From Pseudomonadota bacterium (GTDB taxonomy: Bacteria; Pseudomonadota; Alphaproteobacteria; Caulobacterales; Hyphomonadaceae), in assembly GCA_039026555.1 (NCBI GenBank), contig JBCCMB010000001.1, positions 5,631 to 69,630 on the forward strand: 64,000 bases of DNA, written 5' to 3'. Both the position numbers and the translations under genes were made by a program. Positions within the stretch are counted from its first letter, which is position 1, and each line of letters opens with the position of its first letter. Shown here in pieces: positions 20,006-37,178 of the stretch. Below the pieces are notes generated by a model. That model was not told where the DNA came from. It saw only the letters and a program-made list of their open reading frames with translations, and made no database searches.

Positions 20006-20067
20006 CCAACTGCGGCTCGCCGTTTGGTTTGCGCCGAATTCATGCTGCGATCGGCGTTTGAACAATC

Positions 20068-22936: not shown

Positions 22937-23697
22937 AACGGTCAAAGCGTATTCGATATGGTTTCGCGTTCGCTGCGGCGGCCGCGGTCTCCGCGGGCGC
23001 AGTCTTTCAGATCATGGCGCCCCCGGTCCCGCGTGTAATCTACAATGCGAGCGAAAGCGCTCCGCGCGGATGGTATTGGCTTAACCCCTCCGGTGAGATC
23101 GTGCCCGGCGTACGGGTCGCAGCCTTCGCGACGCCGGAGGCTCAGGCGTTGGCCGAAGCGCGCGGCTACCTCCCATCCGGCGCGCCGCTTCTCAAAACTG
23201 TTTGGGCGGTCGGTGGAGATAGGATTTGTATCGAGAACCAAACCGTTCGCGCGCCAAACCATCCCGACATCCACGCCTTAGCGCGGGACGGAGCGGGACG
23301 CGACCTGCCGCAATTGTCCCGATGTTTCGAGCTCGCCCCCAACGAGATCTTCCTTGTCTCAAACGATGTGCAGGCCTCTTTCGACAGCCGATATTTCGGT
23401 CCGGTTCACAGAGATCTCGTTTTGGGAACCGTCCGTTATCTCGGCGGCGCGAGGAAGAAGCAGAACAGCGATGGCGTTTCAGACCAGGGCGGGGCGCGGG
23501 GTTTTGGCGCGGAGGGCAAGATAAAAACGAGGAGGCCTCCTAAGGCCTTATCCCCTTGTCTGCACATCTTTTTTGGGAGGGCTCCGCATAAGGCGGGCAG
23601 GCCCGGTAGATGCGTTGTAAGCCCAACATTCGCAGGCGAAAGTGGGAGGCCTCCCAGCCCGCAAAGTCACCTGATGGTCCGGAACGTCACGCCGTGA
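22933..23697 (+). CDS. traF: S26 family signal peptidase, TraF-like
   Basis: NASESAPRGWYWL (catalytic Ser region) and SNDVQASFDSRYFGPV (S26 box E). GTG 22933 overlaps the upstream TGA. The last ~75 codons look non-homologous and may be a read-through extension. Confidence 0.65.
   Translation: MKRSKRIRYGFAFAAAAAVSAGAVFQIMAPPVPRVIYNASESAPRGWYWLNPSGEIVPGVRVAAFATPEAQALAEARGYLPSGAPLLKTVWAVGGDRICIENQTVRAPNHPDIHALARDGAGRDLPQLSRCFELAPNEIFLVSNDVQASFDSRYFGPVHRDLVLGTVRYLGGARKKQNSDGVSDQGGARGFGAEGKIKTRRPPKALSPCLHIFFGRAPHKAGRPGRCVVSPTFAGESGRPPSPQSHLMVRNVTP
23525..23660. promoter_or_regulatory. Palindrome cluster upstream of the relaxase (candidate oriT region)
   Basis: GGAGGCCTCC (23531-23540) abuts TAAGGCCTTA (23541-23550). 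GGGAGGCCTCCC lies at 23644-23655. All are within ~170 nt upstream of the relaxase start. Confidence 0.3.
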
Positions 23698-25613
23698 GCG
23701 AGGGCGATGACGGCTTCGAAATCAGGCTCGGCCGCATCCGCTCCCCCGCCGGCGTTCAGAAATCGCAGCGTTTCTTACGACAGGCCGCCCGCGGCGCAGG
23801 CCGGCTCGCCGGCGTCGGCAAGGGGCGCAATCGCCTGCCACGGTCTTCAGGGCGCGCGCTTCACTTTTATCGCCGCGTCTTGGTCAAAGCCCGTATCGTG
23901 CGCATGGTCGGGCGCGGCGCCGGCGCTCAACGGCTCCATCTCTCCTATATCGCGCGGGACGGCGCCGGACGCGATGGCGGGCGCGCCGGTCTGTTCGATG
24001 CGGCTGGCGAGGCCGACGCTAATGCGTTCTTGGACCGCGGCGCCGGCGACCGCCATCAATTCCGTTTCGTGATTTCGCCGGAGGACGCCGCCGATATGGC
24101 GGACCTTCCAGCCTTCACGCGGGACTTCGTCGCTCAGATGGAGGTTGATCTGGAGACGAGGCTCGATTGGGTCGCCGCAGATCATTACGACACCGACCAC
24201 CCCCATATTCACCTCGTGGTCGCCGGACGGCGCGAGGATGGCCGTGACCTCGTCATGCCTCGCGCCTACATCGCGCATGGCGTACGCGAACGCGCCCAAG
24301 CGCTCGTCGATCTCGAGCTTGGTCCGGTCAGTGAATTCGACGGCAAGCGCCGCCTCGCGCGCATGGTCGGTCAAGACCGCTTAACGGAGATCGATCGAAG
24401 TTTGATTCGTCGCGCGGAGGGCGGCGTTGCTGATCTGAAGGCGACTGGTCGTCCCGGCGAGCACTGGCTTAGACGTATCGAGCGCGCGCGCCTTCGAAAA
24501 CTTGAGCGCTTCGGTCTCGCCGAGGCGCTGGACAGCGATCGCTGGCGGCTTCGGACCGATACGCGCGCGACGCTCGAACGTATGGGCGCGCGCGGAGATG
24601 TCGTCAAAGCGATCAATTGCGGTCTGGCGCGCGCGGGACGGGCGCACACCGTCGACAGCGCGTCAATCTATGATGCGGCCGCTAAAGACGCCTCGGCGAT
24701 GACAGGACGGGTTGTGGCGCTCGGCGTCGCAGACGACGTCGAAGATCGCGCCTACGTCCTGATCGATCGGGAAGACGGGCGCGTCGTCTATGTCGACATT
24801 GGCGGCTCCGATCGCCTCGCTGAGGTTGAGGCGGGCTTCATCGTAACTGTGACGCCCTCGGCGGCGGAGCCGCGACTATCCGACAAAACAATCGCGCGCA
24901 TCGCCGATGAGAATAATGGCCGCTATAGCGCGCAGCTTCATCGCGCCGCCGATCCGGGCGCACGGGCGGAATTTATCAGCGCCCATGTCCGGCGCTTGGA
25001 AGCGATGCGGCGCGTCGGCTGCGCCGTCCGCAGCAGCAACGGCGAATGGACCATTCCCGGCGACTACCTCGCCCGCGCCGCCGCGATCGAACAGGCGAGG
25101 GCGGTTCGACGGCCGGTGGAGATAGACATCCGATCCAAACTCTCCCTGGGCGCCATGAAGACGGCGATCGGCGCGACCTGGTTGGACCGACATCTCAGGG
25201 ATTATGACATCGACGAATCAGCGAGGGGCTTTGGCGGCGACGTCGCAAGGGCGAGGCGGGAGCGCTTGGCGTTTCTGGAACACGGGGGATTTATTAAGCT
25301 AGGGACGAAGAGATTAGCGCCGGAAATTCTCGACGCGCTCAAAGCGCGCGATCTTGAAGAGGCTGGCGCAGACCTCTCAAAGCGCCTGCAGAAACCCTAC
25401 GTCGCCGCGCCAGACGTGGGAGAGGTTCACGGTGTTTACGCAGAGGCGATCGAACGTCCGAGCGGTCGATACGCCCTGATCGAATGGACTAAGGATTTCA
25501 CGCTGGTTCCATGGCGCGATGTGCTTGAGCGCGGTAGGGGCAAAGCGGTGTCGGGTGTCGTGCGCGGCGGAGGGATTTCTTGGAAGCTGACGAAGGGCAG
25601 AAGCGTTTCATAA
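23694..25613 (+). CDS. Conjugative relaxase/mobilisation nuclease (VirD2-like plus DUF3363-like C-terminus)
   Basis: DDGFEIRLGRIRS N-terminus. YIARDG, the Tyr-containing stretch, lies upstream of DHYDTDHPHIHLVV, the relaxase histidine triad. GTG 23694 overlaps the upstream TGA. Confidence 0.8.
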   Translation: MSEGDDGFEIRLGRIRSPAGVQKSQRFLRQAARGAGRLAGVGKGRNRLPRSSGRALHFYRRVLVKARIVRMVGRGAGAQRLHLSYIARDGAGRDGGRAGLFDAAGEADANAFLDRGAGDRHQFRFVISPEDAADMADLPAFTRDFVAQMEVDLETRLDWVAADHYDTDHPHIHLVVAGRREDGRDLVMPRAYIAHGVRERAQALVDLELGPVSEFDGKRRLARMVGQDRLTEIDRSLIRRAEGGVADLKATGRPGEHWLRRIERARLRKLERFGLAEALDSDRWRLRTDTRATLERMGARGDVVKAINCGLARAGRAHTVDSASIYDAAAKDASAMTGRVVALGVADDVEDRAYVLIDREDGRVVYVDIGGSDRLAEVEAGFIVTVTPSAAEPRLSDKTIARIADENNGRYSAQLHRAADPGARAEFISAHVRRLEAMRRVGCAVRSSNGEWTIPGDYLARAAAIEQARAVRRPVEIDIRSKLSLGAMKTAIGATWLDRHLRDYDIDESARGFGGDVARARRERLAFLEHGGFIKLGTKRLAPEILDALKARDLEEAGADLSKRLQKPYVAAPDVGEVHGVYAEAIERPSGRYALIEWTKDFTLVPWRDVLERGRGKAVSGVVRGGGISWKLTKGRSVS

Positions 25614-25953: not shown

Positions 25954-26079
25954 GAGCGTGCTGGCCACACGGAAACCGACATTGTTGTTTCGGTTCGTGG
26001 TGGTGTTCCTGTTGCGGTTCGCCGAGCGAAGGTTCTGCGGATTGTTGTTCCAGGAACCACCGCGGAGAACACGACGCGA
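25954..26079 (-). repeat. DGR template repeat (TR), 126 nt
   Basis: Collinear with the terminal 126 nt of four FGE-domain genes. It is AAY-rich (reads NNNPQNLRSANRNRNTTTNRNNN). By hand alignment, all mismatches to VR1, VR3 and VR4 lie at its adenines. The 3' end (GGCCAGCACGCTCCAC) differs from the VR ends (GGCCAGGACGCTTTRA). Confidence 0.85.
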
Positions 26080-26194: not shown

Positions 26195-26246
26195 AGCAAA
26201 AAAATCGAACCGGCTTCGCCGGTACAAGACGCGGGCTCTCGCCCGC
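26195..26246 (-). terminator. Post-VR1 module: GNRA-loop hairpin plus rho-independent terminator
   Basis: Coding sense: GCGGGC-GAGA-GCCCGC (26231-26246), then ACCGGCGAAGCCGGT (26209-26223) followed by TCGATTTTTTT. Confidence 0.6.
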
Positions 26247-26263: not shown

Positions 26264-28648
26264 TCAAAGCGTCCTGGCCACACGGAAACCGACAAGGCTG
26301 CCTCGGTCCGCGGTGGTGCCCCTGAGGCGGTTCGCCGAGCGAAGGCTCTGCGGAATGTGGCTCCAGGAACCACCGCGGAGAACACGACGCGAACATTCTC
26401 CGATTGTCCAAGCAGAGCCGTTCGACGGACCCCCTGAATAACTGGCGTTCCAGCAATCTTGCGTCCATTCCCAGACATTGCCGATCATATCGTGAAGGCC
26501 AAAAGCGTTTGCCTGATATCTGCCAACCAGCGCTGTTTTTTTGCCTACGCCGTCGTCGCAAGTTGAAGTCGTCCAATTACTATCTTCTCGTTTCGCCGTG
26601 ATGTCGGCCGCATTCGAATACGCGCACCCCCCATTCCTATCGTTTCCCCAAGGATAGGCGCTCGTCGTCCCCGCACGCGCCGCATACTCCCATTCCGCCT
26701 CAGACAGAAGGCGATAGGTCTTACCCGTCTTGCGAGACAGCCAACCCGCATAGGCCTGAGCATCGTTCCAATCGACATTGATCACAGGACGCGATCCGCG
26801 ACCCCAGCCTTCATCCCCGCCTGTGCTCGCCGGCCCCGCATCATCGCACGTCCCGTCGGCGACGCATGCGCCCCATTCCGCCCAAGTCACCTCGTATTTG
26901 CCCACCGCGAACTGGTAGTCGATCCGCACAGTCCGGACCGGGCCTTCATCATCGTCGCGGCCTTCCTCCGACGACGGCGAGCCCATCACAAAACGGCCCG
27001 AGGGGATCACGACCATTTCGGGGCCTTGCCCGCCGCCCGAGAGCGCATCGCGGAACACCTGGCCGGGCGTTGAGGGGCGCTCTATCGCTTTGAGTTTCGC
27101 GCGCGCGGCGGCTGCGTTGGCGCCGGATGCGTGGGACGCTAAATACCGCTCATACCCAGCCTTGGTATCCGTGCGCTGCGCCAGCGCCCAGGCTTGCGCC
27201 TCCGCCTCCCGCGCCGCTTGCGCGCGTTGCTTCGCTGCGGCCGCCTCGGCTTCCGCTTTCAGGGCCGCCAGCCGCGTCCGCGCCCGCGCCGCATTCGGAC
27301 CGTTCGGATAGTCGGACAGGAAGCTCTCAATCGCACGGACGGTGTCGGTGCGTTCGGCGACCATCCACGCAGCGTTTTCAGAGATCTCAAATTCTCGCGC
27401 CGCGCGTTCGGCCCGGTCCGCAAACGCGGCGATGTCGTCCAACGCTCCCGTGGCCAGGTCCGGCGCCGTAAGGCCGGCGTCGCTCGCAAAGCTTGCGGCG
27501 GCGGCGATCGTGCCGCGTCCCGCTGCGCCGTCGACGCTGCTGGTGTAGAGGCCGAGACGCTTTAGCGCCGTCTGAACGCGCCGGATCGCTGACGCTCGCG
27601 CGGCGGGGGCGTCCGCAGAGGCCGCTAGCTCTTCGGTTCCGAGCGCAGTTGTTGATGTTTGCGAAGTTGACGACAGGCGATTAAGCGTTTCGAGCGCCTT
27701 GTCGATATTGTCCTTTAGCGTTTGGTCCGTCGTCTGCCGATCAAGCTGTTGCAGCAGCATCGCCGCTCTTTCCGACGACCTCGACGAGATTGGCGTATCA
27801 AGACGGCTGACGACGTTCGCCACGCCCAACTGCTCGTAGTAAACTTGGCTCTCAACACCCCATTCGACAAATTCCAGAATTGCGGATTCGTCCTCATCGC
27901 CATTGATGTTCTCGGCGATTTTTTCGCGCGCCCGCCTTCGAACAGCAGAAATATCAGACGTCAGATCAGAGATCAGCGCGGGGTCTAATCCAGCCACGGT
28001 TTCGCCGGCTGCGGTGGCTGTAGGTGCGCTCGTCGTCGTATCGCGCCAGCCGAAAGGGTCAAACGTCCAAAGGCCGCCGCCTAGACTGACCAAAAGTAGG
28101 GCGACAACAGCGGCGACAACACCGCCAGGACTCGCCTTCGTATCCGCCCCGGGACTACGACTTGGTTTGTCCGCCGGGACCTGTTGGCCGATGTTCAAGC
28201 CGCGGATCAAAACGCCGACATCATTGTCGAAACTGTCCGCGCGCAGCTTGACGCCGTGGCGCATGGAGAGTTCGCGGATGTCTTCGGGCAGCTCGTCCGC
28301 CTCCGGCACGGCGACGCCGTCCAGCAACACCGGGACGACGGGGATGTCGCGTTTCAACGCCGCCGCGATTTCCGCGCGCACGAAATCACGCGGATCGTCC
28401 AAGCGGCGCTTGCCGGTGTCGGGGTCGGCCGCGTTTAGCCAATTACGGCCGATCATGGCGAGGACCATGTCGCACTGGGCGACCGTCATATCGATCTGTT
28501 GCTTGAAGTTCAGCCCGACCGTCATGGAGTCCAGGTCGTAGAAAATGTCGACCTTGGGATCGTCGACTACCTTGGCCAACGCCTCATAAACCGACTTCGT
28601 CTGCCACTGGCTGTCGTCGCGCCTGTAAGAGATGAAGATCTTCGACAT
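26264..28648 (-). CDS. TIR - TM - PG-binding-like/helical repeats - FGE-sulfatase (C-type lectin fold) protein; DGR target 1
   Basis: Start at ATG 28648: MSKIFISYRRDDS (TIR). TM segment VVAAVVALLLVSLGGGLWTF. RRVQTALKRLGLYTSSVDGAAG is PG_binding_1-like. The C-terminal FGE domain has MVVIPSGRFVMGS, VNVDWNDAQAY, LLSEAEWEYAARAG, GLHDMIGNVWEW and RVLRGGSW. Confidence 0.85.
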   Translation of the reverse strand: MSKIFISYRRDDSQWQTKSVYEALAKVVDDPKVDIFYDLDSMTVGLNFKQQIDMTVAQCDMVLAMIGRNWLNAADPDTGKRRLDDPRDFVRAEIAAALKRDIPVVPVLLDGVAVPEADELPEDIRELSMRHGVKLRADSFDNDVGVLIRGLNIGQQVPADKPSRSPGADTKASPGGVVAAVVALLLVSLGGGLWTFDPFGWRDTTTSAPTATAAGETVAGLDPALISDLTSDISAVRRRAREKIAENINGDEDESAILEFVEWGVESQVYYEQLGVANVVSRLDTPISSRSSERAAMLLQQLDRQTTDQTLKDNIDKALETLNRLSSTSQTSTTALGTEELAASADAPAARASAIRRVQTALKRLGLYTSSVDGAAGRGTIAAAASFASDAGLTAPDLATGALDDIAAFADRAERAAREFEISENAAWMVAERTDTVRAIESFLSDYPNGPNAARARTRLAALKAEAEAAAAKQRAQAAREAEAQAWALAQRTDTKAGYERYLASHASGANAAAARAKLKAIERPSTPGQVFRDALSGGGQGPEMVVIPSGRFVMGSPSSEEGRDDDEGPVRTVRIDYQFAVGKYEVTWAEWGACVADGTCDDAGPASTGGDEGWGRGSRPVINVDWNDAQAYAGWLSRKTGKTYRLLSEAEWEYAARAGTTSAYPWGNDRNGGCAYSNAADITAKREDSNWTTSTCDDGVGKKTALVGRYQANAFGLHDMIGNVWEWTQDCWNASYSGGPSNGSAWTIGECSRRVLRGGSWSHIPQSLRSANRLRGTTADRGSLVGFRVARTL
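26267..26392 (-). repeat. DGR variable repeat VR1
   Basis: Last 42 codons of the gene. I count 15 mismatches to the TR, all at TR adenines, for example AAC AAC AAT to AGC CAC ATT. Confidence 0.85.
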
Positions 28649-28702
28649 ACGTCGTCCCCGCCGAACTCTAGAGAACACGCTAGTCCATCCATGAACGCAA
28701 TG

Positions 28703-29773
28703 TCACCCTAGAATGCGTTTGCCGTACTTTCGTTCGCCTAGAACTGCATTTCGCAGCTTGCGCGTGTGGGCGAAGTTGGCATGAGCCTCCCAGGCCTCGA
28801 TGCGGACGTGAGCGTCAGCCTCTGTCGTGGTTCCGGCGCTCAATTGGTCGCGGAGGCTGCGCAGGCGGTGACGGAAGCGCCGGATAGTCGCCTCGGGCAA
28901 GCGACGTACGCCTTTAGGCGCCAAGACATAGCACAGGAACTCCGCGGGCTCCGCTGTCGGCGCGACCCAAGTCTTCTGCGTATGAAGCTTTAACCGTCGC
29001 CCCTCCAGGAACCGAGCGATCCGATCCCGCCAATCTGCAAGGATTGCAGGATCGTCGTGAAACAATGCGAAATCGTCGACATATCGCACATAGGGCGCGC
29101 GGAGCACTTCAGTACAAAAATGGTCCAGCGGGTCTAGATAGAGATTGGCGAAAAATTGGCTGGTGAGATTTCCGATCGGCAGGCCGCGCCGGCGGGCGAC
29201 TGGCGCGAATAGATCGTCGCCTGGGAAATGTAGCTCCACCAGCTCTTGGCGGTTTGAAGCGTCGATGATGCAGTCCAGTAGGCCGAGCGTGCGCTCGCAT
29301 GCGAGACGCCGACGCAAATCGCGCTTGAGGATGGCGTGGTCGATGGCTGGGAAATAACGAAAGATGTCGCAGCGCAAGACGTAAGCGCAGCGATCACGAT
29401 AGCGCTCATACGCCTCCACCGCCCGGTGTGCGCCCTTGCCCCGCCGGTTGGCGAAGGTGTGAGCGATGAAGCCGCGTTCGAAAATTGGTTCTACGACGGC
29501 GCATACGGCGTGGTGAACCACGCGGTCGCGAAACGGGGCCGCGGAAACGATACGGTGCTTGGGATCGAAAAGTTCGATCTTCACATACCGGCCGGGGCGG
29601 TACTCGCCGCTTAACAGCGCGCGCTCAAGCGCCAAGCATTCCTTCTCTCGATCAGCCAGGAAAGCGGCGGCGCCAGGTTTCGTCTTTTTGCCGAGAGCTG
29701 CGCGGCGCGTCGCCGATACAAGCGCGCTGAAATTAGCGATCTGCGGACAAAGATTACGTTCACGCTTGGGCAT
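28703..29773 (-). CDS. DGR-type reverse transcriptase
   Basis: DPKHRIVSAAPFRDRVVHHAV, RRGLPIGNLTSQFFANLYL (the DGR hallmark I/LGxxxSQ) and YVRYVDDFALF (YxDD). 356 aa. No maturase or endonuclease domain and no intron-like flanks. Confidence 0.9.
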   Translation of the reverse strand: MPKRERNLCPQIANFSALVSATRRAALGKKTKPGAAAFLADREKECLALERALLSGEYRPGRYVKIELFDPKHRIVSAAPFRDRVVHHAVCAVVEPIFERGFIAHTFANRRGKGAHRAVEAYERYRDRCAYVLRCDIFRYFPAIDHAILKRDLRRRLACERTLGLLDCIIDASNRQELVELHFPGDDLFAPVARRRGLPIGNLTSQFFANLYLDPLDHFCTEVLRAPYVRYVDDFALFHDDPAILADWRDRIARFLEGRRLKLHTQKTWVAPTAEPAEFLCYVLAPKGVRRLPEATIRRFRHRLRSLRDQLSAGTTTEADAHVRIEAWEAHANFAHTRKLRNAVLGERKYGKRILG

Positions 29774-30143
29774 GACGCGCGGACGACGCTTTTAGCCAAC
29801 CTCCGATCAGACGTCCGACCTTGTCAATTTCACGAGCAGCGAATTCATAGCGGCGCGGGTCTAAATGGCGGAGATCATAGGCCAAGCGGAAGAGGTGGCG
29901 CAGTTTCTCCAGGCCGAGATTGGCGGCTTTCAGAGCTGGCGCGCGCTCGCGCGAATAGGTCGCGTCGATCAGGCGTTCCAGCACGTCTAGCGCGGTTCCC
30001 TGAATACGGTCGCCGAGGAGGAATTTCTGGCTGCGTGGAAACTTTTCGACCGCGGGGATCAGCCAGCGTAGGAAGCCGTTCATCGCTTCGAGCGCAGGAC
30101 CGATTTTCCGTTGCCCGGATTCATATTTCAGCGCCCCAAACAT
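29760..30143 (-). CDS. avd: Avd-like accessory variability determinant (four-helix-bundle protein)
   Basis: 127 aa, basic and helical (FPRSQKFLLGDRIQGTALDVLERLIDA...). Its 3' end overlaps the RT start by 14 nt. Confidence 0.75.
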   Translation of the reverse strand: MFGALKYESGQRKIGPALEAMNGFLRWLIPAVEKFPRSQKFLLGDRIQGTALDVLERLIDATYSRERAPALKAANLGLEKLRHLFRLAYDLRHLDPRRYEFAAREIDKVGRLIGGWLKASSARHAQA

Positions 30144-30221
30144 GGCGTTATGAAGCCGCGAGTCGCCGATTGCGTCGAGCCCCTATGCGTCGCGAATGTC
30201 CCCGAACATTGGCGGGGACAC

Positions 30222-30551
30222 TCAGGAGATTTCCATCACATCGCCGTCGCCAGATAGTAAGGCTCTTATCGCATCGGCGTGCAGCCGGAGCGACAGAGCG
30301 ATCTGTTGCGTGGCTGCGTTTCCGAGCTTTACCCAGACCAGCCTGGGCGGCGCGCCGCGGGTCTCTACCAGCGCTCGCATGTGGTCGTCTTTCGACAAGA
30401 GGGACAGACCGTTAGCACGGGCGTAGCTCCAGACTACGACGTCGTCCGCGCGCTCCAATCCGCACGCCGTGACATGACGACAGTCCGGAAACTCCACCTC
30501 AAGTATCCCTCCAAGGCGCCAGGAGAGATTTTCGTCGATCAAGAAGGTCAA
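30222..30551 (-). CDS. DUF5615 family PIN-like putative toxin
   Basis: MTFLIDENLS...VVVWSYARANGLSLLSKDDH. 4-nt overlap with the upstream DUF433 gene. Confidence 0.6.
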   Translation of the reverse strand: MTFLIDENLSWRLGGILEVEFPDCRHVTACGLERADDVVVWSYARANGLSLLSKDDHMRALVETRGAPPRLVWVKLGNAATQQIALSLRLHADAIRALLSGDGDVMEIS

Positions 30552-30772
30552 GCAGCGCTGTCCGCCAGTCGCCGCTCCCTGTCGGCCGCATAGGCGAGCG
30601 CCGCGCGAATATCCGCTATTTCGATTTCAGGAAAATCTCCGACGATTTCTTCCGGCGTCATTCCGGCCGAAAGATATTCAAGGATATCGTAGACCGTAAT
30701 CCGCAAATTCCGGATGCAGGGCTTGCCTGAGCGTTTGTCCGCTTCGAAGGTAATAACGTCTCGCCAAGACAT
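30548..30772 (-). CDS. DUF433 domain putative antitoxin
   Basis: GKPCIRNLRITVYDILEYLSAGMTPEEIVGDFPEIEIADIRAALAYA is the DUF433 signature. Confidence 0.75.
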   Translation of the reverse strand: MSWRDVITFEADKRSGKPCIRNLRITVYDILEYLSAGMTPEEIVGDFPEIEIADIRAALAYAADRERRLADSAA

Positions 30773-30849
30773 GGTTGATTATCGCCAGACCCTTGCGCCA
30801 GGTCAATGTCGGCGCGATCTAACCTGCTGAATCGATCGGGCCGCCCTTT

Positions 30850-30901
30850 TTCAAAAAAATCGAACCGGCTTCGCCGGTACAAGGCGCGGGCTTGCGCCCG
30901 C
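30850..30901 (-). terminator. Post-VR2 module: GNRA-loop hairpin plus terminator
   Basis: Coding sense: GCGGGC-GCAA-GCCCGC (30886-30901), then ACCGGCGAAGCCGGT (30864-30878) followed by TCGATTTTTTT. Confidence 0.6.
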
Positions 30902-30918
30902 TATTAAGGAAAAAGGGC

Positions 30919-33858
30919 TTAAAGCGTCCTGGCCACACGGAAACCGACAAGGTTGAACCGGTCGCCTGTGTCGTTCCTGTCGCGGAACGCCGAGCGGAGG
31001 AGCTGCGGATCGTTGAGCCAGGAACCGCCGCGGAGAACACGACGCGAGCAGTCACCGGCCGTGTGCGGAGCACCGTCGGGAGGCTGAGAAGCAAGCGTGT
31101 CACGATAGCAATCCTCCACCCATTCCCAGACATTGCCATGCATGTCGTAAACGCCGAATGCGTTAGGCTTAAAGCTGCCGATGGGTGCGGTCTCCAAGTA
31201 ATTGCCTTCGCAATCCACGACATCCCACGACAAATTGTATTTTTGTTGTGTGTCGGGATTTGCGAGGTTGGCGTAGGTGCATATCTCTGCGGCGTCGTCC
31301 CCCCAGGAATACGCCGTTTGCGTCCCCGCCCTAGCGGCATATTCCCATTCGGCTTCCGTTAACAGGCGATAGGGGCCGCCGCCCGCGTCCTTCGAAATCA
31401 TCCAATTAAGCCAGCGCACATACCCCTGCGCGTCGTTCCAGTTCAGATTGATGGCGGGATAGGTTCCCGTCCCGAAGCCTGCATCGCTGAGCGGCGCGCA
31501 GCCGATTATTGCTTCGCCATCCTCGGCCGCTAACAAGGCCGCTTGATCTGTGAAGGCGACGCATCGCGCCCATTCCTGATGAGTGATCTCGAACTGGCCG
31601 ACGGCGAAACGTTGGATCTCGATCTCTTTCTGCGGCCCCTCATCGCGAAAGCGGCCGGTTTCGTCGTCAGGTGATCCCATGACGAAACTGCCTGCGGGAA
31701 TAACGACCATTTCCGGGCATTGGGCCTCGGCGGCGCACTCTCGGAATGTCGCGCGAGCGTCAAGATCGGCTAAATCCTGAGATGACAGCGCGTAGCGCGC
31801 ATAATCGAAACGCTGCACCCATTCTCGCTTCAGTTCGAACTCAAACGCGTATCCCATACTGCCAAGCACGACCAAAAGGCCCAACGCGCCGACCGTTGCG
31901 CCAAGAAGCCGCCGGCGAGTCTTAGACCGGTTCTCCGACTTCTGCGCAGCAGACAAATAGTTCTGCTCGACCTCCCCAAGCTGGGGGCCATAGCGGGGAT
32001 GGTCCGCCAGCGCCGAGGCCGCCTTCAGCCGTTCGCCGAAATGGGTGAGGTATTCGCCTCTACGCTCCTGGCGCGCCCAGATCGCGGCGGCCTGTTTCAA
32101 CCCGCGCAAGGCTTCCAGCCGGGCTTTTTCGGGCTCCAGCCAAGCCTCCAGGCGCGGCCATTTGCGGAACAAGGCTTCATGCGCGACTTCGACGGTCCCG
32201 CCTTCGTCTCCGCTTTCCTTACGCACCACCAGCCGCCAGCGGTCGAAGCGCTCCAACAACTCCCGCTCTTCCGGCCCGAACGCGCGCCACGCCGCCACGC
32301 GCCGGATCGCTTCGCCGTCGTCATTCACATCCGCCAGCGGCGGCACGAAGACGGCTGCGCCGAGCTTTGTCTGGTGCGCCTTCGCCCCGCCTGCAGGCAG
32401 GGCTGCGTCGCGCTGTTCCGGATCGATCCCGCACAAAGCGCGCTCGGCCGCGTCCTCGATCAGGCCCGAAAGCCCCCCCATGGAGGCGTAGTCCGCATGG
32501 GCGAGCTTGCCCGACACGGCGAACTGGTCCCACAACCTTTGCAGCGCGAAGGCGAGCAGCGGCAGCGCATCCTTGCCCGGCGCATCCTCCATCAGCGCGT
32601 CGGTGAGCGCGGGATCCACCTCCACGCCATAGCGCGCCGCCGGGTCCTCGGCGACGTCGTCGAAGCGGAAGACGGGCAGCGTGCGCAAATCATATCCGCG
32701 CGCCTCCAACCCCTGAAAACGCGGATGCGCCTGCAGCTCCGGAAAGCTGTCTGTCCGGATGGTGAAGGCGAGCCGGATTGGCGAGGCCGCCTCCATAGCG
32801 GCGCGCAGATAATCAGCGAGCGCCTGGCCGTTCTCCCCGTCGGCCCGGGCGATCTCCTCCGCCTGGTCGACGCTGATGAGGAGGGTCGCGCCCGGGCGAT
32901 TGGCGCGCGTGCGCAGGCGGGCGGCTTGATCCTCCAGTGTTGCAACTAGGGCGGCGCGCCCGTCCTCCGTCAGCTCGGCCTTGTCGTCGCGCGGGGCCTG
33001 GCGCCAAGCCTCCAGCAGCGTTCGCTTCAGCGCGCCATGGGCTTCGCGCGTTCCGAAATCCGCCAGCGTCCCAGTGATCGCCTCCGCGAAGTTAAGCAGA
33101 GGGTCCGCCCCCGGCCGGAAGGCGCGCAAGGGCAGCCAGGCCGGCGCTTCTCGCCGCAAACGCGGAATGATCCCAGCCTTCAAGAGCGAGGATTTCCCGG
33201 CGCCAGACGCGCCGAGAATCACCAGGGGACGTTTGTCCGCGGCCGCCCGCATGGCGCGTAATTCTTCAAGCGCTTCGGCGATCTCCCGCGAGCGGCCGAA
33301 GAACAGCGCGGCGTCCGCATCGTCATCGCCAAAACTCTGCAGCCCTGGAAAGGGCGAGGGCCGCGCTGCGCGGTCTATCTCGAACGCCGCTGGATCGAGG
33401 CCCACAGCCGACAGCGCCCCCGCCTCGCGTAGGCCCCGTTTCAGCGTCTCAGCGCGGTCTTCGTCGCGAGCGAGGCTCAAGCCCTCAGGCGTCAGGAAGG
33501 GCGTCAGATCCAGCCCCTGGGCCTCGGCGCGCACGCGGCCCAGCTCGGCGCGCTGTTTCTCGTCCAGCGTCGCCTCTTCGCCCAGCAGGAAAAGCGGAAT
33601 AATCCGCTTGCCCATATACCAGGCGGCCTTGAACTCGGACGGGCATTCGCCTGAGGCGAGCCAATTGGGCGTTACCAGGCACAAGACCACGCGGCAGGCG
33701 CCCGCGTTCGCTCTCAGCGCATCGGCCCACGCTTCGCCGCCGGAAATGCTCGAATGGTCGATAAAAAGATCGGTAAAGCCTTCGGCTCTCAGCCAGGCCT
33801 CAAGCCGGCTGGCCAAATCGTCATCCCGACTGGAATGGGAAATGAAAATCGTCGCCAC
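30919..33858 (-). CDS. TIR - STAND P-loop NTPase - TM - FGE-sulfatase (C-type lectin fold) protein; DGR target 2
   Basis: MATIFISHSSRDDD (TIR). FFGRSREI...RPLVILGASGAGKSSLLKAG (Walker A) and TLLISVDQAEE (Walker B), followed by a long helical region. TM segment LLGATVGALGLLVVLGSMGYAF preceded by KTRRR. The FGE domain has MVVIPAGSFVMGS, INLNWNDAQGY, LLTEAEWEYAARAG and GVYDMHGNVWEW. Confidence 0.85.
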   Translation of the reverse strand: MATIFISHSSRDDDLASRLEAWLRAEGFTDLFIDHSSISGGEAWADALRANAGACRVVLCLVTPNWLASGECPSEFKAAWYMGKRIIPLFLLGEEATLDEKQRAELGRVRAEAQGLDLTPFLTPEGLSLARDEDRAETLKRGLREAGALSAVGLDPAAFEIDRAARPSPFPGLQSFGDDDADAALFFGRSREIAEALEELRAMRAAADKRPLVILGASGAGKSSLLKAGIIPRLRREAPAWLPLRAFRPGADPLLNFAEAITGTLADFGTREAHGALKRTLLEAWRQAPRDDKAELTEDGRAALVATLEDQAARLRTRANRPGATLLISVDQAEEIARADGENGQALADYLRAAMEAASPIRLAFTIRTDSFPELQAHPRFQGLEARGYDLRTLPVFRFDDVAEDPAARYGVEVDPALTDALMEDAPGKDALPLLAFALQRLWDQFAVSGKLAHADYASMGGLSGLIEDAAERALCGIDPEQRDAALPAGGAKAHQTKLGAAVFVPPLADVNDDGEAIRRVAAWRAFGPEERELLERFDRWRLVVRKESGDEGGTVEVAHEALFRKWPRLEAWLEPEKARLEALRGLKQAAAIWARQERRGEYLTHFGERLKAASALADHPRYGPQLGEVEQNYLSAAQKSENRSKTRRRLLGATVGALGLLVVLGSMGYAFEFELKREWVQRFDYARYALSSQDLADLDARATFRECAAEAQCPEMVVIPAGSFVMGSPDDETGRFRDEGPQKEIEIQRFAVGQFEITHQEWARCVAFTDQAALLAAEDGEAIIGCAPLSDAGFGTGTYPAINLNWNDAQGYVRWLNWMISKDAGGGPYRLLTEAEWEYAARAGTQTAYSWGDDAAEICTYANLANPDTQQKYNLSWDVVDCEGNYLETAPIGSFKPNAFGVYDMHGNVWEWVEDCYRDTLASQPPDGAPHTAGDCSRRVLRGGSWLNDPQLLRSAFRDRNDTGDRFNLVGFRVARTL
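30922..31047 (-). repeat. DGR variable repeat VR2 (divergent)
   Basis: Same length and flanks as the other VRs. By my count ~16 mismatches lie at TR adenines and 6 at non-adenine positions (GGT to GGC, CTT to CTC, and within ACC ACC ACG to GAC ACA GGC). Confidence 0.65.
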
Positions 33859-35695: not shown

Positions 35696-35697
35696 GA

Positions 35698-36368: not shown

Positions 36369-36449
36369 GTGCTCCCTCCAAATCGCGAGAGCTGCACAAT
36401 GGTTAATGATCTGAAAATTGGGTATCTAGCCGATCGATGGCTTGACCCG

Positions 36450-37178
36450 TCAGGGTACGATTAAATCTCGCGCAATCGCCCGGGAGACGGCTTGGGTAGT
36501 GTTGACGCAATTCAGTTTACGTCGTGCGCGCACCAGCGCGTCTTTCACCGCCGCCTCGCTGATCGACATAATCACGCTCATCTCCCAGACGGTTTTGCCG
36601 ACTGCGGCGTATTGGAGAACGTCGCGTTCACGAGGCGCGAGCTTTACATCCGGGACGACCGGTACCGGCGGCTGCATATCCTCGAGCCGATAGTAGAAAT
36701 GCATGCTCACCAGCTGCAGCGCCGCAAAATCATCTTTCGAGATATCCACTTTGTTGGTGGCTAAGGAGACCCCGCCATCAACGCTGCCAGGCCTGCGCAT
36801 GGGTAGCATGATCCCGTCATTCAGGTCAAAGTCGCGCGCAATCTGCTGCACCGGACCATTGCCGTATCTTCGCTCGAACTTAAAGGCCTCCGCCCAACTA
36901 AACGGCCGCCGCGAGCGCATGGCGTAGATAATGACGGGGTCGCGGAGCAGATGCCCCTTTTCGAGCTGATACTCGACGATCTGACCTGGAAAATTGGAAT
37001 AGCTCATCGCCTTGTGCAGCTTCGGATTAAGCGGATTGACGAGTTGGCTGACGAAGAAGCGCTCGAACCCAAGCTTTCGGATAAAGCTGGAAAACACCCC
37101 GAGCACGCCATCGGTGGTCCGCGCGTCGTCAATCTCAGCTAAGGTGTCGAGCACCTCAATGCGTTGGCGTACATCCAT
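36450..37178 (-). CDS. luxR: LuxR family transcriptional regulator (autoinducer-binding plus HTH)
   Basis: N-terminal autoinducer-binding-like domain. The C-terminal LAPRERDVLQYAAVGKTVWEMSVIMSISEAAVKDALVRARRKL is a LuxR/GerE HTH. Confidence 0.85.
   Translation of the reverse strand: MDVRQRIEVLDTLAEIDDARTTDGVLGVFSSFIRKLGFERFFVSQLVNPLNPKLHKAMSYSNFPGQIVEYQLEKGHLLRDPVIIYAMRSRRPFSWAEAFKFERRYGNGPVQQIARDFDLNDGIMLPMRRPGSVDGGVSLATNKVDISKDDFAALQLVSMHFYYRLEDMQPPVPVVPDVKLAPRERDVLQYAAVGKTVWEMSVIMSISEAAVKDALVRARRKLNCVNTTQAVSRAIARDLIVP

What the first reader, a model, noticed from the sequence alone, without database searches (positions are those of the whole stretch)
26264..33858. Hypervariable lectin-fold domains fused across a membrane to TIR and TIR-STAND modules
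Target 1 is TIR - one TM helix - PG-binding-like/helical repeats - FGE(VR). Target 2 is TIR - P-loop STAND NTPase (GASGAGKSS, VDQAEE) - one TM helix preceded by KTRRR - FGE(VR). By the positive-inside rule the TIR and NTPase parts would be cytoplasmic and the DGR-diversified ligand-binding domain extracytoplasmic. That resembles a receptor with a mutable outside sensor wired to an inside TIR (potential NADase or signalling) effector, conceptually like an innate-immune receptor with programmable specificity. As far as I recall, comparative genomics has noted FGE/CLec DGR targets combined with STAND, TIR, caspase and trypsin domains in conflict systems. No such TIR-coupled transmembrane DGR receptor has been characterised experimentally to my knowledge. 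What it senses is open: phage, competitor cells, conjation partners or PG fragments.
Basis: inference. Interest (0 to 1): 0.9.

Follow-up and report, generated by a model that had tools for sequence, protein, structure and literature searches.

The report
DGR-diversified transmembrane TIR and TIR-STAND receptors
Two membrane proteins carry a mutation-prone binding domain on the predicted outer side of the cell membrane and an immune-type "alarm" domain (TIR, with or without a STAND ATPase) inside; the kind is known from comparative genomics, but its across-the-membrane wiring is under-described and untested.

Summary
On the minus strand lie Target 2 (TIR, nSTAND1, one TM helix, FGE/C-type-lectin fold), a small toxin-antitoxin-like pair, Avd, a DGR reverse transcriptase, Target 1 (TIR, TM, peptidoglycan-binding-like helical region, FGE) and a 125-nt template repeat.

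- **DGR:** VR1 differs from the TR at 16 positions, 15 of them TR adenines. The same TR matches two further targets 15-25 kb away.
- **Active-looking domains:** both TIR domains keep the catalytic Glu. The Walker A and B motifs of nSTAND1 are intact.
- **Topology:** the TM helix sits at the same place in 117 Target-2 homologs. K+R is higher on the N-side than the C-side in 101 of the 104 that passed the filters. Target-1 relatives carry peptidoglycan-binding, OmpA or PASTA modules after the TM. The FGE domains are closest to periplasmic PvdO. An N-in/C-out topology is therefore well supported, but no dedicated topology predictor was available.

Effector-STAND-FGS proteins linked to DGRs, including TIR-nSTAND1-FGS, are already published (Kaur 2021, Doré 2024) and described there as intracellular sensors. 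This locus is a transmembrane variant of that kind, carried as cargo on a conjugative element. I found no experimental work on it.

The parts
30919..33858 (-). Target 2 gene (979 aa): TIR, nSTAND1 NTPase, single TM, FGE/CLec fold carrying VR2
   Evidence: ORF. Pfam. AF2 model with mean pLDDT 85.9. More than 117 full-length homologs share the architecture.
33409..33858 (-). Target 2 TIR domain (aa 1-150), catalytic Glu at E75
   Evidence: TIR_2 E 1e-16. W66, L67, C72 and E75 are invariant and S69 is 99% conserved in 117 homologs. E75 aligns with the WCWDE Glu of Cat1 TIR.
32059..33354 (-). Target 2 nSTAND1 NTPase (aa 169-600) with Walker A GASGAGKSS and Walker B DQAEE
   Evidence: PF20703 E 3.5e-71. 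The motifs are conserved in homologs.
31843..31908 (-). Target 2 TM helix (about aa 651-672), preceded by KTRRR
   Evidence: Kyte-Doolittle peak of 1.97. The peak is at the same position in 117 homologs. N-flank K+R exceeds C-flank K+R in 101 of the 104 that passed the filters.
30928..31722 (-). Target 2 FGE-fold (C-type-lectin-like) domain, predicted periplasmic
   Evidence: PF03781 E 8e-60. Foldseek top hit is PvdO 5hha, TM-score 0.84. phmmer to PvdO gives E 6e-46, and the FGE catalytic Cys pair is absent.
30923..31047 (-). VR2
   Evidence: 16 of 23 mismatches to the TR fall on TR adenines. There are 6 internal non-A mismatches plus the IMH C>G.
30853..30901 (-). Element 3' of VR2: GC hairpin GCGGGC-GCAA-GCCCGC, then a CCGGC-GAA-GCCGG hairpin and a T-run
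   Evidence: Read. The element is conserved after VR1 and VR3. VR4 has an analogous pair of hairpins with a different sequence.
29760..30143 (-). avd (DGR accessory variability determinant)
   Evidence: PF22296 bAvd E 3e-17. NF033474 DivGenRetAVD at 102 bits, above the cut-off of 80.
28703..29773 (-). DGR reverse transcriptase
   Evidence: RVT_1 E 2e-14. IGNLTSQ and YVDD motifs are in the translation. PADLOC RT model E 3e-43.
26264..28678 (-). Target 1 gene (804-aa ORF; likely 794 aa from ATG at 28648): TIR, TM, helical/PG-binding-like region, FGE fold carrying VR1
   Evidence: AF2 model with mean pLDDT 83.2.
28241..28639 (-). Target 1 TIR domain, catalytic Glu at ORF residue 103
   Evidence: TIR_2 E 4e-10. 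phmmer to SARM1 TIR gives E 1.4e-5, with DFVRAEI aligned to DWVHKEI, which contains E642. The Glu is invariant in 36 homologs (E93 in alignment A2).
28058..28126 (-). Target 1 TM helix (ORF aa about 185-207)
   Evidence: Kyte-Doolittle peak of 2.24. 95 of 120 relatives have exactly one such peak after the TIR. AF2 gives low confidence here.
27467..27595 (-). PG_binding_1-like module in the predicted periplasmic linker of Target 1
   Evidence: E 0.0018, below the gathering score. 9 of 36 family members match PG_binding_1, best E 8e-6, and 2 match OmpA. AF2 pLDDT is about 95 over this region, which is aa 346-523 in 794-aa numbering.
26273..27025 (-). Target 1 FGE-fold domain
   Evidence: PF03781 E 1e-58. 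Foldseek to PvdO gives E 5e-24, TM-score 0.87.
26268..26392 (-). VR1
   Evidence: 15 of 16 mismatches fall on TR adenines. The only other mismatch is the IMH C>G.
26198..26246 (-). Element 3' of VR1: GCGGGC-GAGA-GCCCGC hairpin, then a terminator-like hairpin and a T-run
25955..26079 (-). Template repeat (TR): 125 nt, 30 A, rich in AAC/AAT codons, in frame with all four VRs
44340..45704 (+). Remote Target 3 (454 aa): N-terminal hydrophobic anchor or signal, then FGE fold; VR3 at 45576-45700
48413..55135 (+). Remote Target 4 (2240 aa): WD40, about 8 hydrophobic segments, caspase (Peptidase_C14), FGE fold; VR4 at 55007-55131

Best explanation
The locus is one diversity-generating retroelement (Avd, RT and a single 125-nt TR). 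It rewrites the ligand-binding face of an FGE/C-type-lectin-fold domain in four receptor genes.

The two genes in the finding encode bitopic inner-membrane proteins with an N-in/C-out orientation. The TIR domain, and in Target 2 also an ATP-competent nSTAND1 NTPase, is cytoplasmic. The hypervariable lectin-fold domain is periplasmic. In Target 1 that domain is tethered through a peptidoglycan-binding-like helical stalk.

Proposed mechanism:
1. A multivalent periplasmic or envelope ligand binds the diversified domain. The most likely ligand is a component of an invading phage or other foreign element. This binding clusters the ectodomains.
2. A TM helix separates the sensor from the NTPase, so the usual STAND autoinhibition by direct sensor-NOD contact cannot apply. 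The signal must instead cross the membrane by induced proximity or oligomerisation.
3. The nSTAND1 modules then assemble in an ATP-dependent way. In Target 1 the TIR domains assemble directly.
4. Assembly forms the composite TIR active sites. These hydrolyse NAD+ or make a nucleotide signal, which leads to growth arrest or abortive infection.

Shown here: the DGR anatomy and the adenine-specific TR/VR pattern, the domain order, the family-wide TM helix with its charge bias, the catalytic Glu, and the Walker motifs.

Inferred: the topology (strongly), activation by clustering, NADase output, the immune role, and the identity of the ligand.
For: DGR:
- RT, Avd and TR are present.
- Mismatches are adenine-specific in all four VRs, P 2e-7 to 6e-13.
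- All VRs are in frame, and the TR is rich in AAY codons.
- Codon positions templated by TR adenines in the first or second position have mostly 3.1-3.6 bits of entropy among 117 Target-2 homologs (three are 2.4-2.7, and the two codons in the 3' IMH are invariant or nearly so). Most invariant-templated positions are below 1 bit.
- A hairpin element is conserved 3' of the VRs.

Topology:
- Each protein has one hydrophobic peak.
- In 117 full-length Target-2 homologs the peak lies at the same relative position. Mean K+R is 5.6 on the N-side and 2.3 on the C-side. Of the 104 that passed the filters, 101 have N>C.
- In the Target-1 TIR family, 95 of 120 have exactly one TM peak after the TIR, and 76 of 99 have N>C.
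- The C-terminal partners are typical extracytoplasmic modules: PG_binding_1, OmpA, PASTA, PAN, SEL1 and PEGA.
- The FGE domains are closest to periplasmic PvdO and to the periplasmic lipoproteins GldK/PorK, not to cytoplasmic EgtB.
- An ATPase and an NAD+-using TIR domain need the cytoplasm (established biochemistry).

Effector competence:
- The Target-1 Glu aligns with SARM1 E642.
- Target-2 E75 is invariant, in a W-L-x-S-x-x-C-x-x-E context.
- Walker A and B are invariant or nearly so.

The lectin-fold domain is not an enzyme: the FGE catalytic Cys pair is replaced, and that region is the VR.

Conflict context:
- The island also holds TIR-iSTAND, a MoxR-like AAA protein, a WD40-caspase-FGE protein and a TIR-WD40 protein.
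- The published interpretation of effector-STAND-FGS plus DGR is invader sensing (PMC8195603; PMC10907252).
Against: - No dedicated topology predictor and no fusion data were available. The topology rests on hydropathy, charge bias and the identity of the partner domains.
- AF2 models both TM segments with pLDDT below 50. It does not even draw the Target-1 segment as a helix.
- VR2 has 6 internal non-adenine mismatches to the TR (positions 20, 50 and 76-83 of the repeat). Target 2 has therefore not been fully re-templated by this TR recently.
- Three homolog loci have no RT within 10 kb. Not every family member is demonstrably served by a DGR.
- No population data show ongoing diversification. 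Two metagenome scans for VR variants found nothing.
- Not all Glu-containing TIR domains are NADases.
- The PADLOC hits are only weak TIR-level matches, so no established defence system is matched.
- The published view treats FGS sensors as intracellular.
Confidence: 0.55

Rival explanations
1. The TIR domains act mainly as homotypic adaptors or scaffolds, not as NAD+-consuming killers. Ligand-bound receptors would recruit other TIR proteins of the same island (TIR-iSTAND with its MoxR and caspase partner, and TIR-WD40). The output would then be a proteolytic or ternary-system response, or a non-lethal regulatory signal.
For: - Four TIR proteins lie within 33 kb, next to an iSTAND/MoxR/caspase ternary-type system that shares the same TR.
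- The 'same adaptor on sensor and effector' principle is described for these conflict systems (PMC8195603).
- The TIR domains of Target 2 and of the TIR-WD40 protein are the most similar pair: 34% identity, E 3e-10.
Against: - The catalytic Glu is invariant in both receptor families. Strict conservation is not expected of a pure scaffold.
- The four TIR domains are otherwise only weakly similar to each other.
- Many homologs stand alone, with no other TIR gene nearby.
Confidence: 0.2
2. The receptors are not anti-phage immunity. They serve the conjugative element or the cell in recognising surfaces or kin. Examples would be discriminating recipients or competitors, entry exclusion, or sensing altered peptidoglycan or envelope glycans. 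The TIR domain would provide a signal or a self-limiting response.
For: - The whole DGR and all four of its targets are cargo between the relaxase and the coupling-protein genes of a tRNA-integrated conjugative element.
- The sensor is predicted to face the periplasm. That compartment is met by pili, T4SS parts, cell-wall fragments and neighbouring cells (inference).
- Target-1 relatives carry peptidoglycan-binding modules.
- A LuxR-type autoinducer-binding regulator lies nearby at 36450..37178.
Against: - Homologs also occur among housekeeping genes, away from mobile elements.
- TIR, STAND and caspase combinations are overwhelmingly associated with defence or abortive systems in the literature.
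- Nothing in the sequence points to a specific ligand.
Confidence: 0.15
3. The hydrophobic segment does not place the FGE domain outside the cell. It would be a peripheral or re-entrant anchor, or the orientation is reversed, so the lectin-fold domain senses ligands in the cytoplasm, as the published model for STAND-FGS proteins proposes.
For: - Kaur et al. 2021 describe FGS sensors as intracellular.
- TM-less nSTAND1-FGE proteins exist: L013, L017, L023, L034 and L067.
- AF2 confidence is low for both TM segments.
Against: - Each protein has one hydrophobic stretch of about 20 residues with a Kyte-Doolittle score of 2.0-2.2.
- The charge bias is consistent: 101 of 104 and 76 of 99 have more K+R on the N-side.
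- PG-binding, OmpA and PASTA modules lie on the C-terminal side in relatives.
- The closest relatives of the FGE domain are periplasmic proteins.
- The reversed orientation would put an ATPase and a TIR domain outside the cell.
Confidence: 0.07
4. The DGR is a relic. The TR/VR differences would record past activity, and the targets now behave as fixed receptors.
For: - VR2 carries non-adenine mismatches.
- The TR sits in an unusual place, downstream of Target 1 rather than between avd and RT.
- A toxin-antitoxin-like pair is inserted between Target 2 and avd.
- No variant VRs were found in the metagenome scans.
Against: - The RT and Avd ORFs are intact and keep their catalytic motifs.
- Three of the four VRs differ from the TR only at adenines, plus one shared IMH base.
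- The hairpin element is intact after every VR.
- The four VRs all differ from one another at TR-adenine positions, as expected after independent homing events.
Confidence: 0.06

Closest known systems
Effector-STAND-FGS conflict systems linked to DGRs (Kaur, Iyer, Burroughs & Aravind 2021, eLife, PMC8195603; nSTAND1 is defined there)
   Same: - The architecture matches: an N-terminal effector (TIR is explicitly listed), a central nSTAND1 NTPase and a C-terminal FGS/FGE lectin-fold domain.
- The neighbourhood holds an RT and a four-helix accessory protein.
- Organisms carry several differently wired FGS proteins.
   Different: - Those sensors are described as intracellular.
- Here a TM helix lies between nSTAND1 and FGE, conserved in 117 homologs. 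It predicts a periplasmic sensor.
- Target 1 has no NTPase at all.
Clade-5 (5D) DGR loci of multicellular bacteria, e.g. Thiohalocapsa PB-PSB1 (Doré et al. 2024, PNAS, PMC10907252)
   Same: - There are two adjacent targets with single C-terminal CLec domains.
- The STAND NTPase is central, and some relatives have an N-terminal TIR.
- Ternary MoxR systems are nearby, and remote targets share one TR.
- The authors note that some targets are predicted to be periplasmic.
   Different: - The host here is an alphaproteobacterial MAG. Named relatives are Hyphomonas, Rhodomicrobium and Roseiarcus.
- The locus is cargo of a conjugative element.
- The NTPase-in/CLec-out arrangement across a single TM helix was not described in the text I could read.
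- Membership of the RT in clade 5 was not tested.
Classical DGR targets: Bordetella phage BPP-1 Mtd, Treponema denticola TvpA, Legionella LdtA
   Same: - The VR lies at the 3' end of a CLec/FGE-fold ORF.
- Substitutions are adenine-specific, and the TR uses AAY codons.
- There is an IMH followed by a GC hairpin downstream (established DGR knowledge).
- TvpA (2y3c) is a Foldseek hit, E 6e-14.
   Different: Those proteins are surface-displayed or tail-fibre binding proteins with no signalling module. Here the binding domain is fused across a membrane to TIR or TIR-STAND.
Toll-like receptors and SARM1 (animal TIR proteins)
   Same: - The logic matches a TLR: an extracytoplasmic ligand-binding domain, one TM helix, and a cytoplasmic TIR that would be activated by induced proximity.
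- The Target-1 TIR is detectably similar to the SARM1 TIR, E 1.4e-5, and the catalytic Glu aligns.
   Different: - The orientation is reversed: TIR is N-terminal and inside, and the sensor is C-terminal and outside.
- The ectodomain is an FGE/CLec fold, not LRR.
- The specificity is somatically diversifiable.
- This is an analogy, not family membership.
Bacterial antiviral STAND/NLR-like proteins (Avs, bNACHT; PMC13581612)
   Same: - The layout is tripartite: effector, NTPase, sensor.
- FGE-sulfatase-like sensors are listed among STAND sensor types.
   Different: Characterised members are soluble and sense phage proteins in the cytoplasm, where the sensor can contact the NTPase directly. Here the sensor is separated from the NTPase by the membrane and is hypermutable.
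PvdO (periplasmic pyoverdine-maturation FGE-fold protein, PDB 5hha)
   Same: - It is the closest solved structure and sequence for both FGE domains: 36-40% identity and TM-score 0.84-0.87.
- It is periplasmic and lacks the FGE Cys pair.
   Different: PvdO is a stand-alone, non-variable protein. Neither target reaches the NCBIfam equivalog cut-off (228 and 205 bits against 500).

Membership tests
Diversity-generating retroelement (DGR) | Reverse transcriptase of the DGR type (RVT_1 with IGxxxSQ and YxDD motifs) | tested here: met
   RVT_1 E 2e-14. IGNLTSQ and YVDD are read in the translation. No DGR-specific RT profile was available; NCBIfam gives only sub-threshold hits to group II intron, Drt and retron models.
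Diversity-generating retroelement (DGR) | Accessory protein Avd | tested here: met
   NF033474 DivGenRetAVD at 102.4 bits, above the cut-off of 80. PF22296 bAvd E 3e-17.
Diversity-generating retroelement (DGR) | A TR/VR pair whose differences fall on TR adenines, with the VR at the 3' end of the target ORF | tested here: met
   VR1 15 of 16, VR3 18 of 19, VR4 14 of 15 and VR2 16 of 23 mismatches fall on TR adenines; P 2e-7 to 6e-13. All VRs end 1-2 codons before the stop.
Diversity-generating retroelement (DGR) | IMH-type 3' boundary and a GC-rich hairpin downstream of the VR | tested here: met
   All VRs read ...GGCCAGGACGCTT where the TR reads ...GGCCAGCACGCTC. A GCGGGC-GNNA-GCCCGC hairpin lies 20-30 nt downstream of VR1-VR3, and VR4 has an analogous hairpin. 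Its function was not tested.
Diversity-generating retroelement (DGR) | Ongoing mutagenic homing (population-level VR heterogeneity) | tested here: inconclusive
   Two metagenome scans for VR variants or the IMH returned nothing. Only one other contig with an identical RT was shown, and it stops before VR1. Family-level entropy at adenine-templated codons supports diversification over evolutionary time.
TIR-domain NADases (SARM1 / bacterial TIR effectors) | TIR fold | tested here: met
   PF13676 is above the gathering score in both proteins. AF2 pLDDT is about 80-97 over the TIR regions, with alternating strand-helix topology.
TIR-domain NADases (SARM1 / bacterial TIR effectors) | Catalytic glutamate in the conserved position (WxxxE / SARM1 E642) | tested here: met
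   The Target-1 E (ORF residue 103) aligns with SARM1 E642 and is invariant in 36 homologs. Target-2 E75 is invariant in 117 homologs and aligns with the Cat1 TIR Glu.
TIR-domain NADases (SARM1 / bacterial TIR effectors) | NAD+ hydrolysis or cyclisation on oligomerisation | not testable with these tools
   This needs enzyme assays.
STAND NTPases, nSTAND1 clade | Match to the nSTAND1 profile with intact Walker A and Walker B | tested here: met
   PF20703 at 241 bits against a cut-off of 27. GASGAGKSS and DQAEE are conserved.
STAND NTPases, nSTAND1 clade | Sensor domain contiguous with the NTPase in the same compartment (the canonical soluble STAND layout) | tested here: not met
   A single TM segment lies between nSTAND1 and FGE in the window protein and in 117 homologs. 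TM-containing nSTAND1-WD40 and nSTAND1-FGE proteins, as well as TM-less nSTAND1-FGE proteins, exist elsewhere.
Effector-STAND-FGS plus DGR conflict systems (Kaur 2021) / clade 5D DGR loci (Doré 2024) | N-terminal effector, central STAND and C-terminal FGS architecture, with RT and Avd nearby | tested here: met
.
Effector-STAND-FGS plus DGR conflict systems (Kaur 2021) / clade 5D DGR loci (Doré 2024) | Intracellular location of the FGS sensor (as described in 2021) | tested here: not met
   Predicted N-in/C-out topology. This is a prediction only, not an experiment.
Effector-STAND-FGS plus DGR conflict systems (Kaur 2021) / clade 5D DGR loci (Doré 2024) | RT belongs to DGR RT clade 5 | not tested
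Formylglycine-generating enzymes / PvdO equivalogs | Catalytic Cys pair (FGE), or an equivalog-level score (PvdO) | tested here: not met
   The CxxxxC of S. coelicolor FGE aligns to a gap or N and to L or a gap in Target 2. The PvdO model scores 205-228 bits against a cut-off of 500. The fold is shared; the enzyme family is not.
Toll-like receptors | Type I topology with an N-terminal LRR ectodomain and a C-terminal cytoplasmic TIR | tested here: not met
   TIR is N-terminal, and the ectodomain is an FGE fold at the C-terminus. The resemblance is an analogy in logic only.

The most novel reading that the evidence does not exclude
These proteins would be transmembrane NLR/TLR hybrids. A STAND (NOD-like) ATPase and a TIR effector sit inside the cell, and the pattern-recognition domain sits in the periplasm. 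That domain is somatically hypermutated by a retroelement.

Such a receptor would give a bacterium a programmable sensor that detects invaders at the envelope, before or during genome entry. It would have to signal through one TM helix by induced oligomerisation rather than by the sensor-NOD autoinhibition used by all characterised STAND proteins.

One TR would feed the same binding repertoire into four differently wired outputs: TIR alone, TIR-STAND, a membrane-anchored binder, and a WD40-caspase ternary system. The whole battery is mobile on a conjugative element.
Probability: 0.35. Interest if true: 0.85.

Novelty: new variant of a known kind. Interest (0 to 1): 0.6.

Why it matters
DGR-diversified lectin-fold sensors fused to STAND, TIR and caspase modules are the closest bacterial analogue of a hypermutating antigen receptor. 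None has been tested experimentally.

This locus, and the more than 100 homologs with the same layout, suggest that a large alphaproteobacterial branch of that class is not cytosolic. It instead reads the periplasm and reports across a single TM helix.

That has three consequences:
- **What could be sensed.** Candidates become envelope-stage phage components, pili or T4SS parts, and cell-wall fragments.
- **How a STAND NTPase can be switched on.** Clustering would have to replace release of sensor-NOD autoinhibition.
- **How to study it.** The periplasmic domain is accessible to added ligands and to display or selection experiments.

Target 1 is a minimal version (TIR, TM, stalk, variable lectin) and would make a tractable model for ligand-induced TIR activation. 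Carriage on a conjugative element means the whole programmable receptor set can spread horizontally.

Tried and rejected
**Variant VRs in public metagenomes.** I searched with a TR-derived pattern (A replaced by N) and with the IMH sequence. Both scans returned zero hits, so there is no population evidence for current activity.

**Other contigs carrying the RT.** An exact look-up of the RT reported two contigs and showed one, a 3.7-kb Logan contig. It confirms the DUF433-DUF5615-avd-RT order but ends before VR1.

**Species-representative genome scan.** It was still useful for showing both TM-containing and TM-less nSTAND1 architectures.

**Foldseek on whole models.** Both searches were dominated by the FGE domain. 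They said nothing about the TIR domains or the Target-1 stalk. I addressed the TIR question by sequence alignment to SARM1 and Cat1 and by family conservation.

**AF2 for the membrane segments.** It did not help, because pLDDT was below 50 for both.

**PADLOC.** It gave only weak TIR-level matches, so no established defence system is matched.

**Rfam.** It found only a tRNA in the window.

**Cysteine enrichment.** I considered using the enrichment of Cys in the FGE domains as evidence for a periplasmic location. I rejected it as weak, because TM-less nSTAND1-FGE proteins also contain Cys in that domain.

**An enzymatic FGE or PvdO role.** I considered this and rejected it.

Full report
**1. 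What is in the sequence**

The region 25.9-33.9 kb carries, on the minus strand and in this order:
- Target 2 (33858..30919, 979 aa).
- Two small ORFs (30772..30548 and 30551..30222).
- avd (30143..29760).
- A reverse transcriptase gene (29773..28703).
- Target 1 (28678..26264; the probable start is the ATG at 28648, giving the 794-aa protein that NCBI holds as P0121).
- A 125-nt repeat at 26079..25955, 313 nt downstream of the matching stretch in Target 1.

Pfam assignments:
- Target 1: TIR_2 (aa 14-146), a sub-threshold PG_binding_1 (aa 362-404) and FGE-sulfatase (aa 552-802).
- Target 2: TIR_2 (aa 4-94), nSTAND1 (aa 169-600, 241 bits) and FGE-sulfatase (aa 713-977).
- The RT matches RVT_1 and Avd matches bAvd.

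- Avd passes NCBI's equivalog cut-off for DGR Avd.
- The RT shows the IGNLTSQ and YVDD motifs.
- GASGAGKSS, VDQAEE and KTRRR are all present.
- Each protein has exactly one strongly hydrophobic stretch, at Target 1 aa 180-209 and Target 2 aa 650-674.

**2. It is a DGR with four targets, not two**

The repeat at 25955-26079 is the template repeat (TR). It contains 30 adenines and reads in frame as a run of AAC/AAT codons.

| VR | Mismatches to TR | On TR adenines | Other mismatches |
|---|---|---|---|
| VR1 (26268-26392) | 16 | 15 | one C>G in the 3' boundary |
| VR2 (30923-31047) | 23 | 16 | the same C>G, plus six internal non-adenine differences at repeat positions 20, 50 and 76-83 |
| VR3 (45576-45700) | 19 | 18 | the same C>G |
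| VR4 (55007-55131) | 15 | 14 | the same C>G |

- The C>G is shared by all four VRs, which gives an IMH versus IMH* pair.
- The hypergeometric probabilities that the mismatches fall on adenines by chance range from 2e-7 to 6e-13.
- I found VR3 and VR4 by scanning the whole window for the non-adenine skeleton of the TR. They lie on the plus strand.
  - VR3 is at the 3' end of a 454-aa protein made of a membrane anchor and an FGE domain.
  - VR4 is at the 3' end of a 2240-aa WD40, multi-TM, caspase and FGE protein.
- All VRs are followed by a GC hairpin with a four-base loop, and a second terminator-like hairpin. The sequence is conserved for VR1-VR3 and analogous for VR4. This corresponds to the cis element known from the Bordetella phage DGR (established knowledge; not tested here).
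- The clustered non-adenine mismatches mean that VR2 has not been fully re-templated by this TR recently.

**3. Relatives**

*Target 2.*
- It is identical to an NCBI protein from a 'Pseudomonadota bacterium' MAG (contig of 106,383 bp).
- At least 120 homologs share the TIR_2, nSTAND1 and FGE Pfam string; 117 of them are full-length, at 52-77% identity.
- The named sources are Hyphomonas, Rhodomicrobium, Roseiarcus and Rhodobacteraceae.
- Among the 117 full-length homologs, most codon positions templated by TR adenines are hypervariable (3.1-3.6 bits). Most scaffold positions are below 1 bit. The family as a whole therefore carries the DGR signature.
- Two loci of homologs that I looked up had no RT within 10 kb. 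This fits the remote-target arrangement seen in this window but does not prove it.

*Target 1.*
- It belongs to a family of about 40 retrieved proteins with the layout TIR, TM, variable linker, FGE. One of them, from Hyphomonas, also had no RT within 10 kb.
- That family sits inside a much larger set of TIR plus single-TM proteins whose C-terminal parts are PASTA, OmpA, PG_binding_1, SEL1, PAN, PEGA, trypsin or nuclease domains.

**4. Topology**

No dedicated predictor was available, so I used four independent lines of evidence.

1. *Conservation of the hydrophobic segment.*
   - All 117 full-length Target-2 homologs have their hydropathy maximum at the same relative position.
   - Of the Target-1-type proteins, 95 of 120 have exactly one peak after the TIR.
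2. *Positive-inside bias.*
   - In the Target-2 family, K+R in the 15 residues flanking the TM helix averages 5.6 on the N-side and 2.3 on the C-side. N exceeds C in 101 of 104 sequences.
   - In the Target-1-type family, N exceeds C in 76 of 99 sequences, with 6 reversed.
   - The sequences are related, so the Wilcoxon P values overstate independence.
3. *Partner domains.*
   - Within the TIR-TM-FGE family, 9 of 36 members match PG_binding_1, 2 match OmpA, 2 match PG_binding_2 and 1 matches PEGA, all between the TM helix and FGE.
   - These modules work outside the cytoplasmic membrane.
4. *Affinity of the FGE domains.*
   - The best sequence, profile and structure matches are to periplasmic PvdO: phmmer E 6e-46, and Foldseek E 1e-21 and 5e-24 with TM-scores 0.84-0.87.
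   - The next best are to the periplasmic lipoproteins GldK/PorK.
   - Cytoplasmic EgtB is far weaker.

In addition, an ATPase and an NAD+-dependent TIR domain would be useless outside the cell. I therefore regard N-in/C-out as well supported, at about 0.85, but still a prediction. AF2 gave confident domain models (mean pLDDT 85.9 and 83.2). It was uninformative for the membrane segments themselves.

**5. Are the cytoplasmic modules competent?**

- The Target-1 TIR is detectably similar to the SARM1 TIR (E 1.4e-5). Its DFVRAEI Glu aligns with SARM1 E642, and the Glu is invariant in 36 homologs.
- Target-2 E75 lies in a W-L-x-S-x-x-C-x-x-E context. It aligns with the corresponding Glu of the Cat1 TIR and is invariant in 117 homologs.
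- Walker A and B of nSTAND1 are invariant or nearly so.
- The FGE-fold domains lack the catalytic Cys pair of formylglycine-generating enzymes, and the VR occupies exactly that region. They are binding modules, not enzymes.

**6. Mechanism proposed**

*Shown:* a DGR able to rewrite about 18 codons of a lectin-fold surface in four proteins. Two of these proteins join that surface, through one TM helix, to TIR or TIR-nSTAND1.

*Inferred:*
- The variable surface faces the periplasm.
- Binding of a multivalent foreign ligand clusters the receptors.
- Clustering is relayed through the long juxtamembrane helices (AF2 helices 629-653 and 662-689 in Target 2). It drives ATP-dependent nSTAND1 assembly, or direct TIR assembly in Target 1.
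- The assembled TIR domains consume NAD+ or make a signal nucleotide, giving arrest or abortive infection.

The sensor and the NTPase are in different compartments. The sensor-NOD autoinhibition used by soluble STAND proteins therefore cannot operate, which is the main mechanistic departure. My confidence in the whole chain is 0.55. The weakest links are the output chemistry and the nature of the ligand.

The rivals are listed separately: an adaptor role for TIR, an ICE or kin-recognition function, a cytoplasmic sensor, and a relic DGR.

**7. Comparison with what is known**

- Kaur et al. 2021 (PMC8195603) define nSTAND1. They describe effector-STAND-FGS proteins whose N-terminal effectors include TIR, associated with a DGR RT and a four-helix accessory protein. 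They interpret the FGS domain as an *intracellular* invader sensor.
- Kaur et al. 2020 (PMC7159879) describe the iSTAND, MoxR and vWA ternary systems with FGS effectors and DGR linkage. The second half of this window resembles such a system.
- Doré et al. 2024 (PMC10907252) report the following:
  - Clade-5D DGRs typically have two CLec targets with central nSTAND1 or NACHT, and sometimes an N-terminal TIR.
  - Some targets are predicted to be periplasmic.
  - None of these CLec-STAND proteins has been characterised experimentally.
- A 2026 survey of defence STANDs lists FGE-sulfatase-like sensors but reports no work on them in the passages I searched.

The kind is therefore known. What differs here:
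- A TM helix, conserved across the family, lies between nSTAND1 and FGE.
- A minimal TIR-TM-stalk-FGE form exists without any NTPase.
- The species-representative genome scan shows that nSTAND1 occurs in both forms: TM-less nSTAND1-FGE, and TM-containing nSTAND1-FGE and TIR-nSTAND1-TM-WD40.

I file the finding as a new variant of a known kind. I could not see the published figures, so a TM helix may have been drawn there without comment.

**8. Context**

The DGR and all four targets lie between a DUF3363/MobA-type relaxase gene (23610..25613) and a TraG/VirD4 coupling-protein gene (58940..61036). Upstream are a tRNA gene (18615-18688), an integrase gene, DUF2840 and a TraF-like S26 peptidase gene. 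The receptor battery is therefore cargo of an integrative conjugative element.

**9. Verdict**

- The novelty is moderate.
- Interest is 0.6. The system is real, widespread, untested and experimentally attractive, but a specialist who knows the 2020-2024 comparative papers would not be very surprised.

Noticed in passing
window 44340-45704 (+) and 48413-55135 (+); VR3 45576-45700, VR4 55007-55131: Two more targets of the same TR lie 15-25 kb from the RT. One is a 454-aa protein with an N-terminal hydrophobic anchor and an FGE domain. The other is a 2240-aa protein with WD40 repeats, about 8 hydrophobic segments, a caspase domain and an FGE domain. Both VRs differ from the TR only at adenines, plus the shared IMH base.
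   Followed up: partly
window 45966-47306 (+), 47315-48388 (+), 48413-55135 (+): A TIR-iSTAND protein, a MoxR-like AAA ATPase and the giant WD40-caspase-FGE protein sit in a row. This resembles the iSTAND ternary conflict systems of Kaur et al. 2020, here served by the same DGR. No vWA domain was seen among the 25 Pfam families listed for the large protein.
   Followed up: partly
window 30222-30772 (-): A DUF433 (74 aa) and DUF5615 (109 aa, PIN-like) toxin-antitoxin-type pair is inserted between Target 2 and avd. The same pair precedes avd-RT on an independent Logan contig (L001).
   Followed up: partly
window 18615-25613 and 58940-61036: The region has the hallmarks of an integrative conjugative element: a tRNA gene, a tyrosine integrase, DUF2840, a TraF-like S26 peptidase, a DUF3363/MobA relaxase and a TraG/VirD4 coupling protein. 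The DGR and all its targets are cargo between the relaxase and the coupling protein.
   Followed up: partly
window 25955-26079 relative to 28703-30143: The gene order is unusual for a DGR. The TR lies downstream of Target 1 (avd, RT, target, TR) rather than between avd and RT. About 340 nt of GC-rich intergenic sequence follows the TR before the convergent relaxase gene.
   Followed up: no
window 30923-31047 (VR2): VR2 carries six internal non-adenine mismatches to the TR, four of them clustered at repeat positions 76-83. VR1, VR3 and VR4 have none. This suggests that VR2 is converted only partially or rarely, or that it descends from a different TR.
   Followed up: partly
window 55784-58732 (-): A 982-aa TIR-WD40 protein lies directly after Target 4 on the opposite strand. 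Its TIR domain is the closest in the island to the Target-2 TIR (34% identity, E 3e-10).
   Followed up: partly
window 38875-44218 (-): Three consecutive minus-strand genes lie between the two halves of the island: a 633-aa protein with no family match, a 622-aa Trypsin_2 protein, and a 480-aa protein with a C-terminal PG_binding_1 domain. They may be further conflict-system components.
   Followed up: no
window 34679-37178 (-): A PhyH-family dioxygenase gene and a LuxR-type autoinducer-binding regulator gene lie just beyond the 5' end of Target 2. I did not examine a possible quorum-sensing link to expression of the island.
   Followed up: no
loci L006-L010, L015, L021, L039, L047, L048, L051 (genome contigs): In Halomonas, Anaerolineae, Nitrosomonas, Planctomycetes and others, TIR-nSTAND1 is followed by a single TM segment at about aa 600-700. 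A long C-terminal region follows, WD40-like by inspection in several cases. This suggests that 'STAND inside, sensor outside' is a general feature of a branch of nSTAND1.
   Followed up: partly
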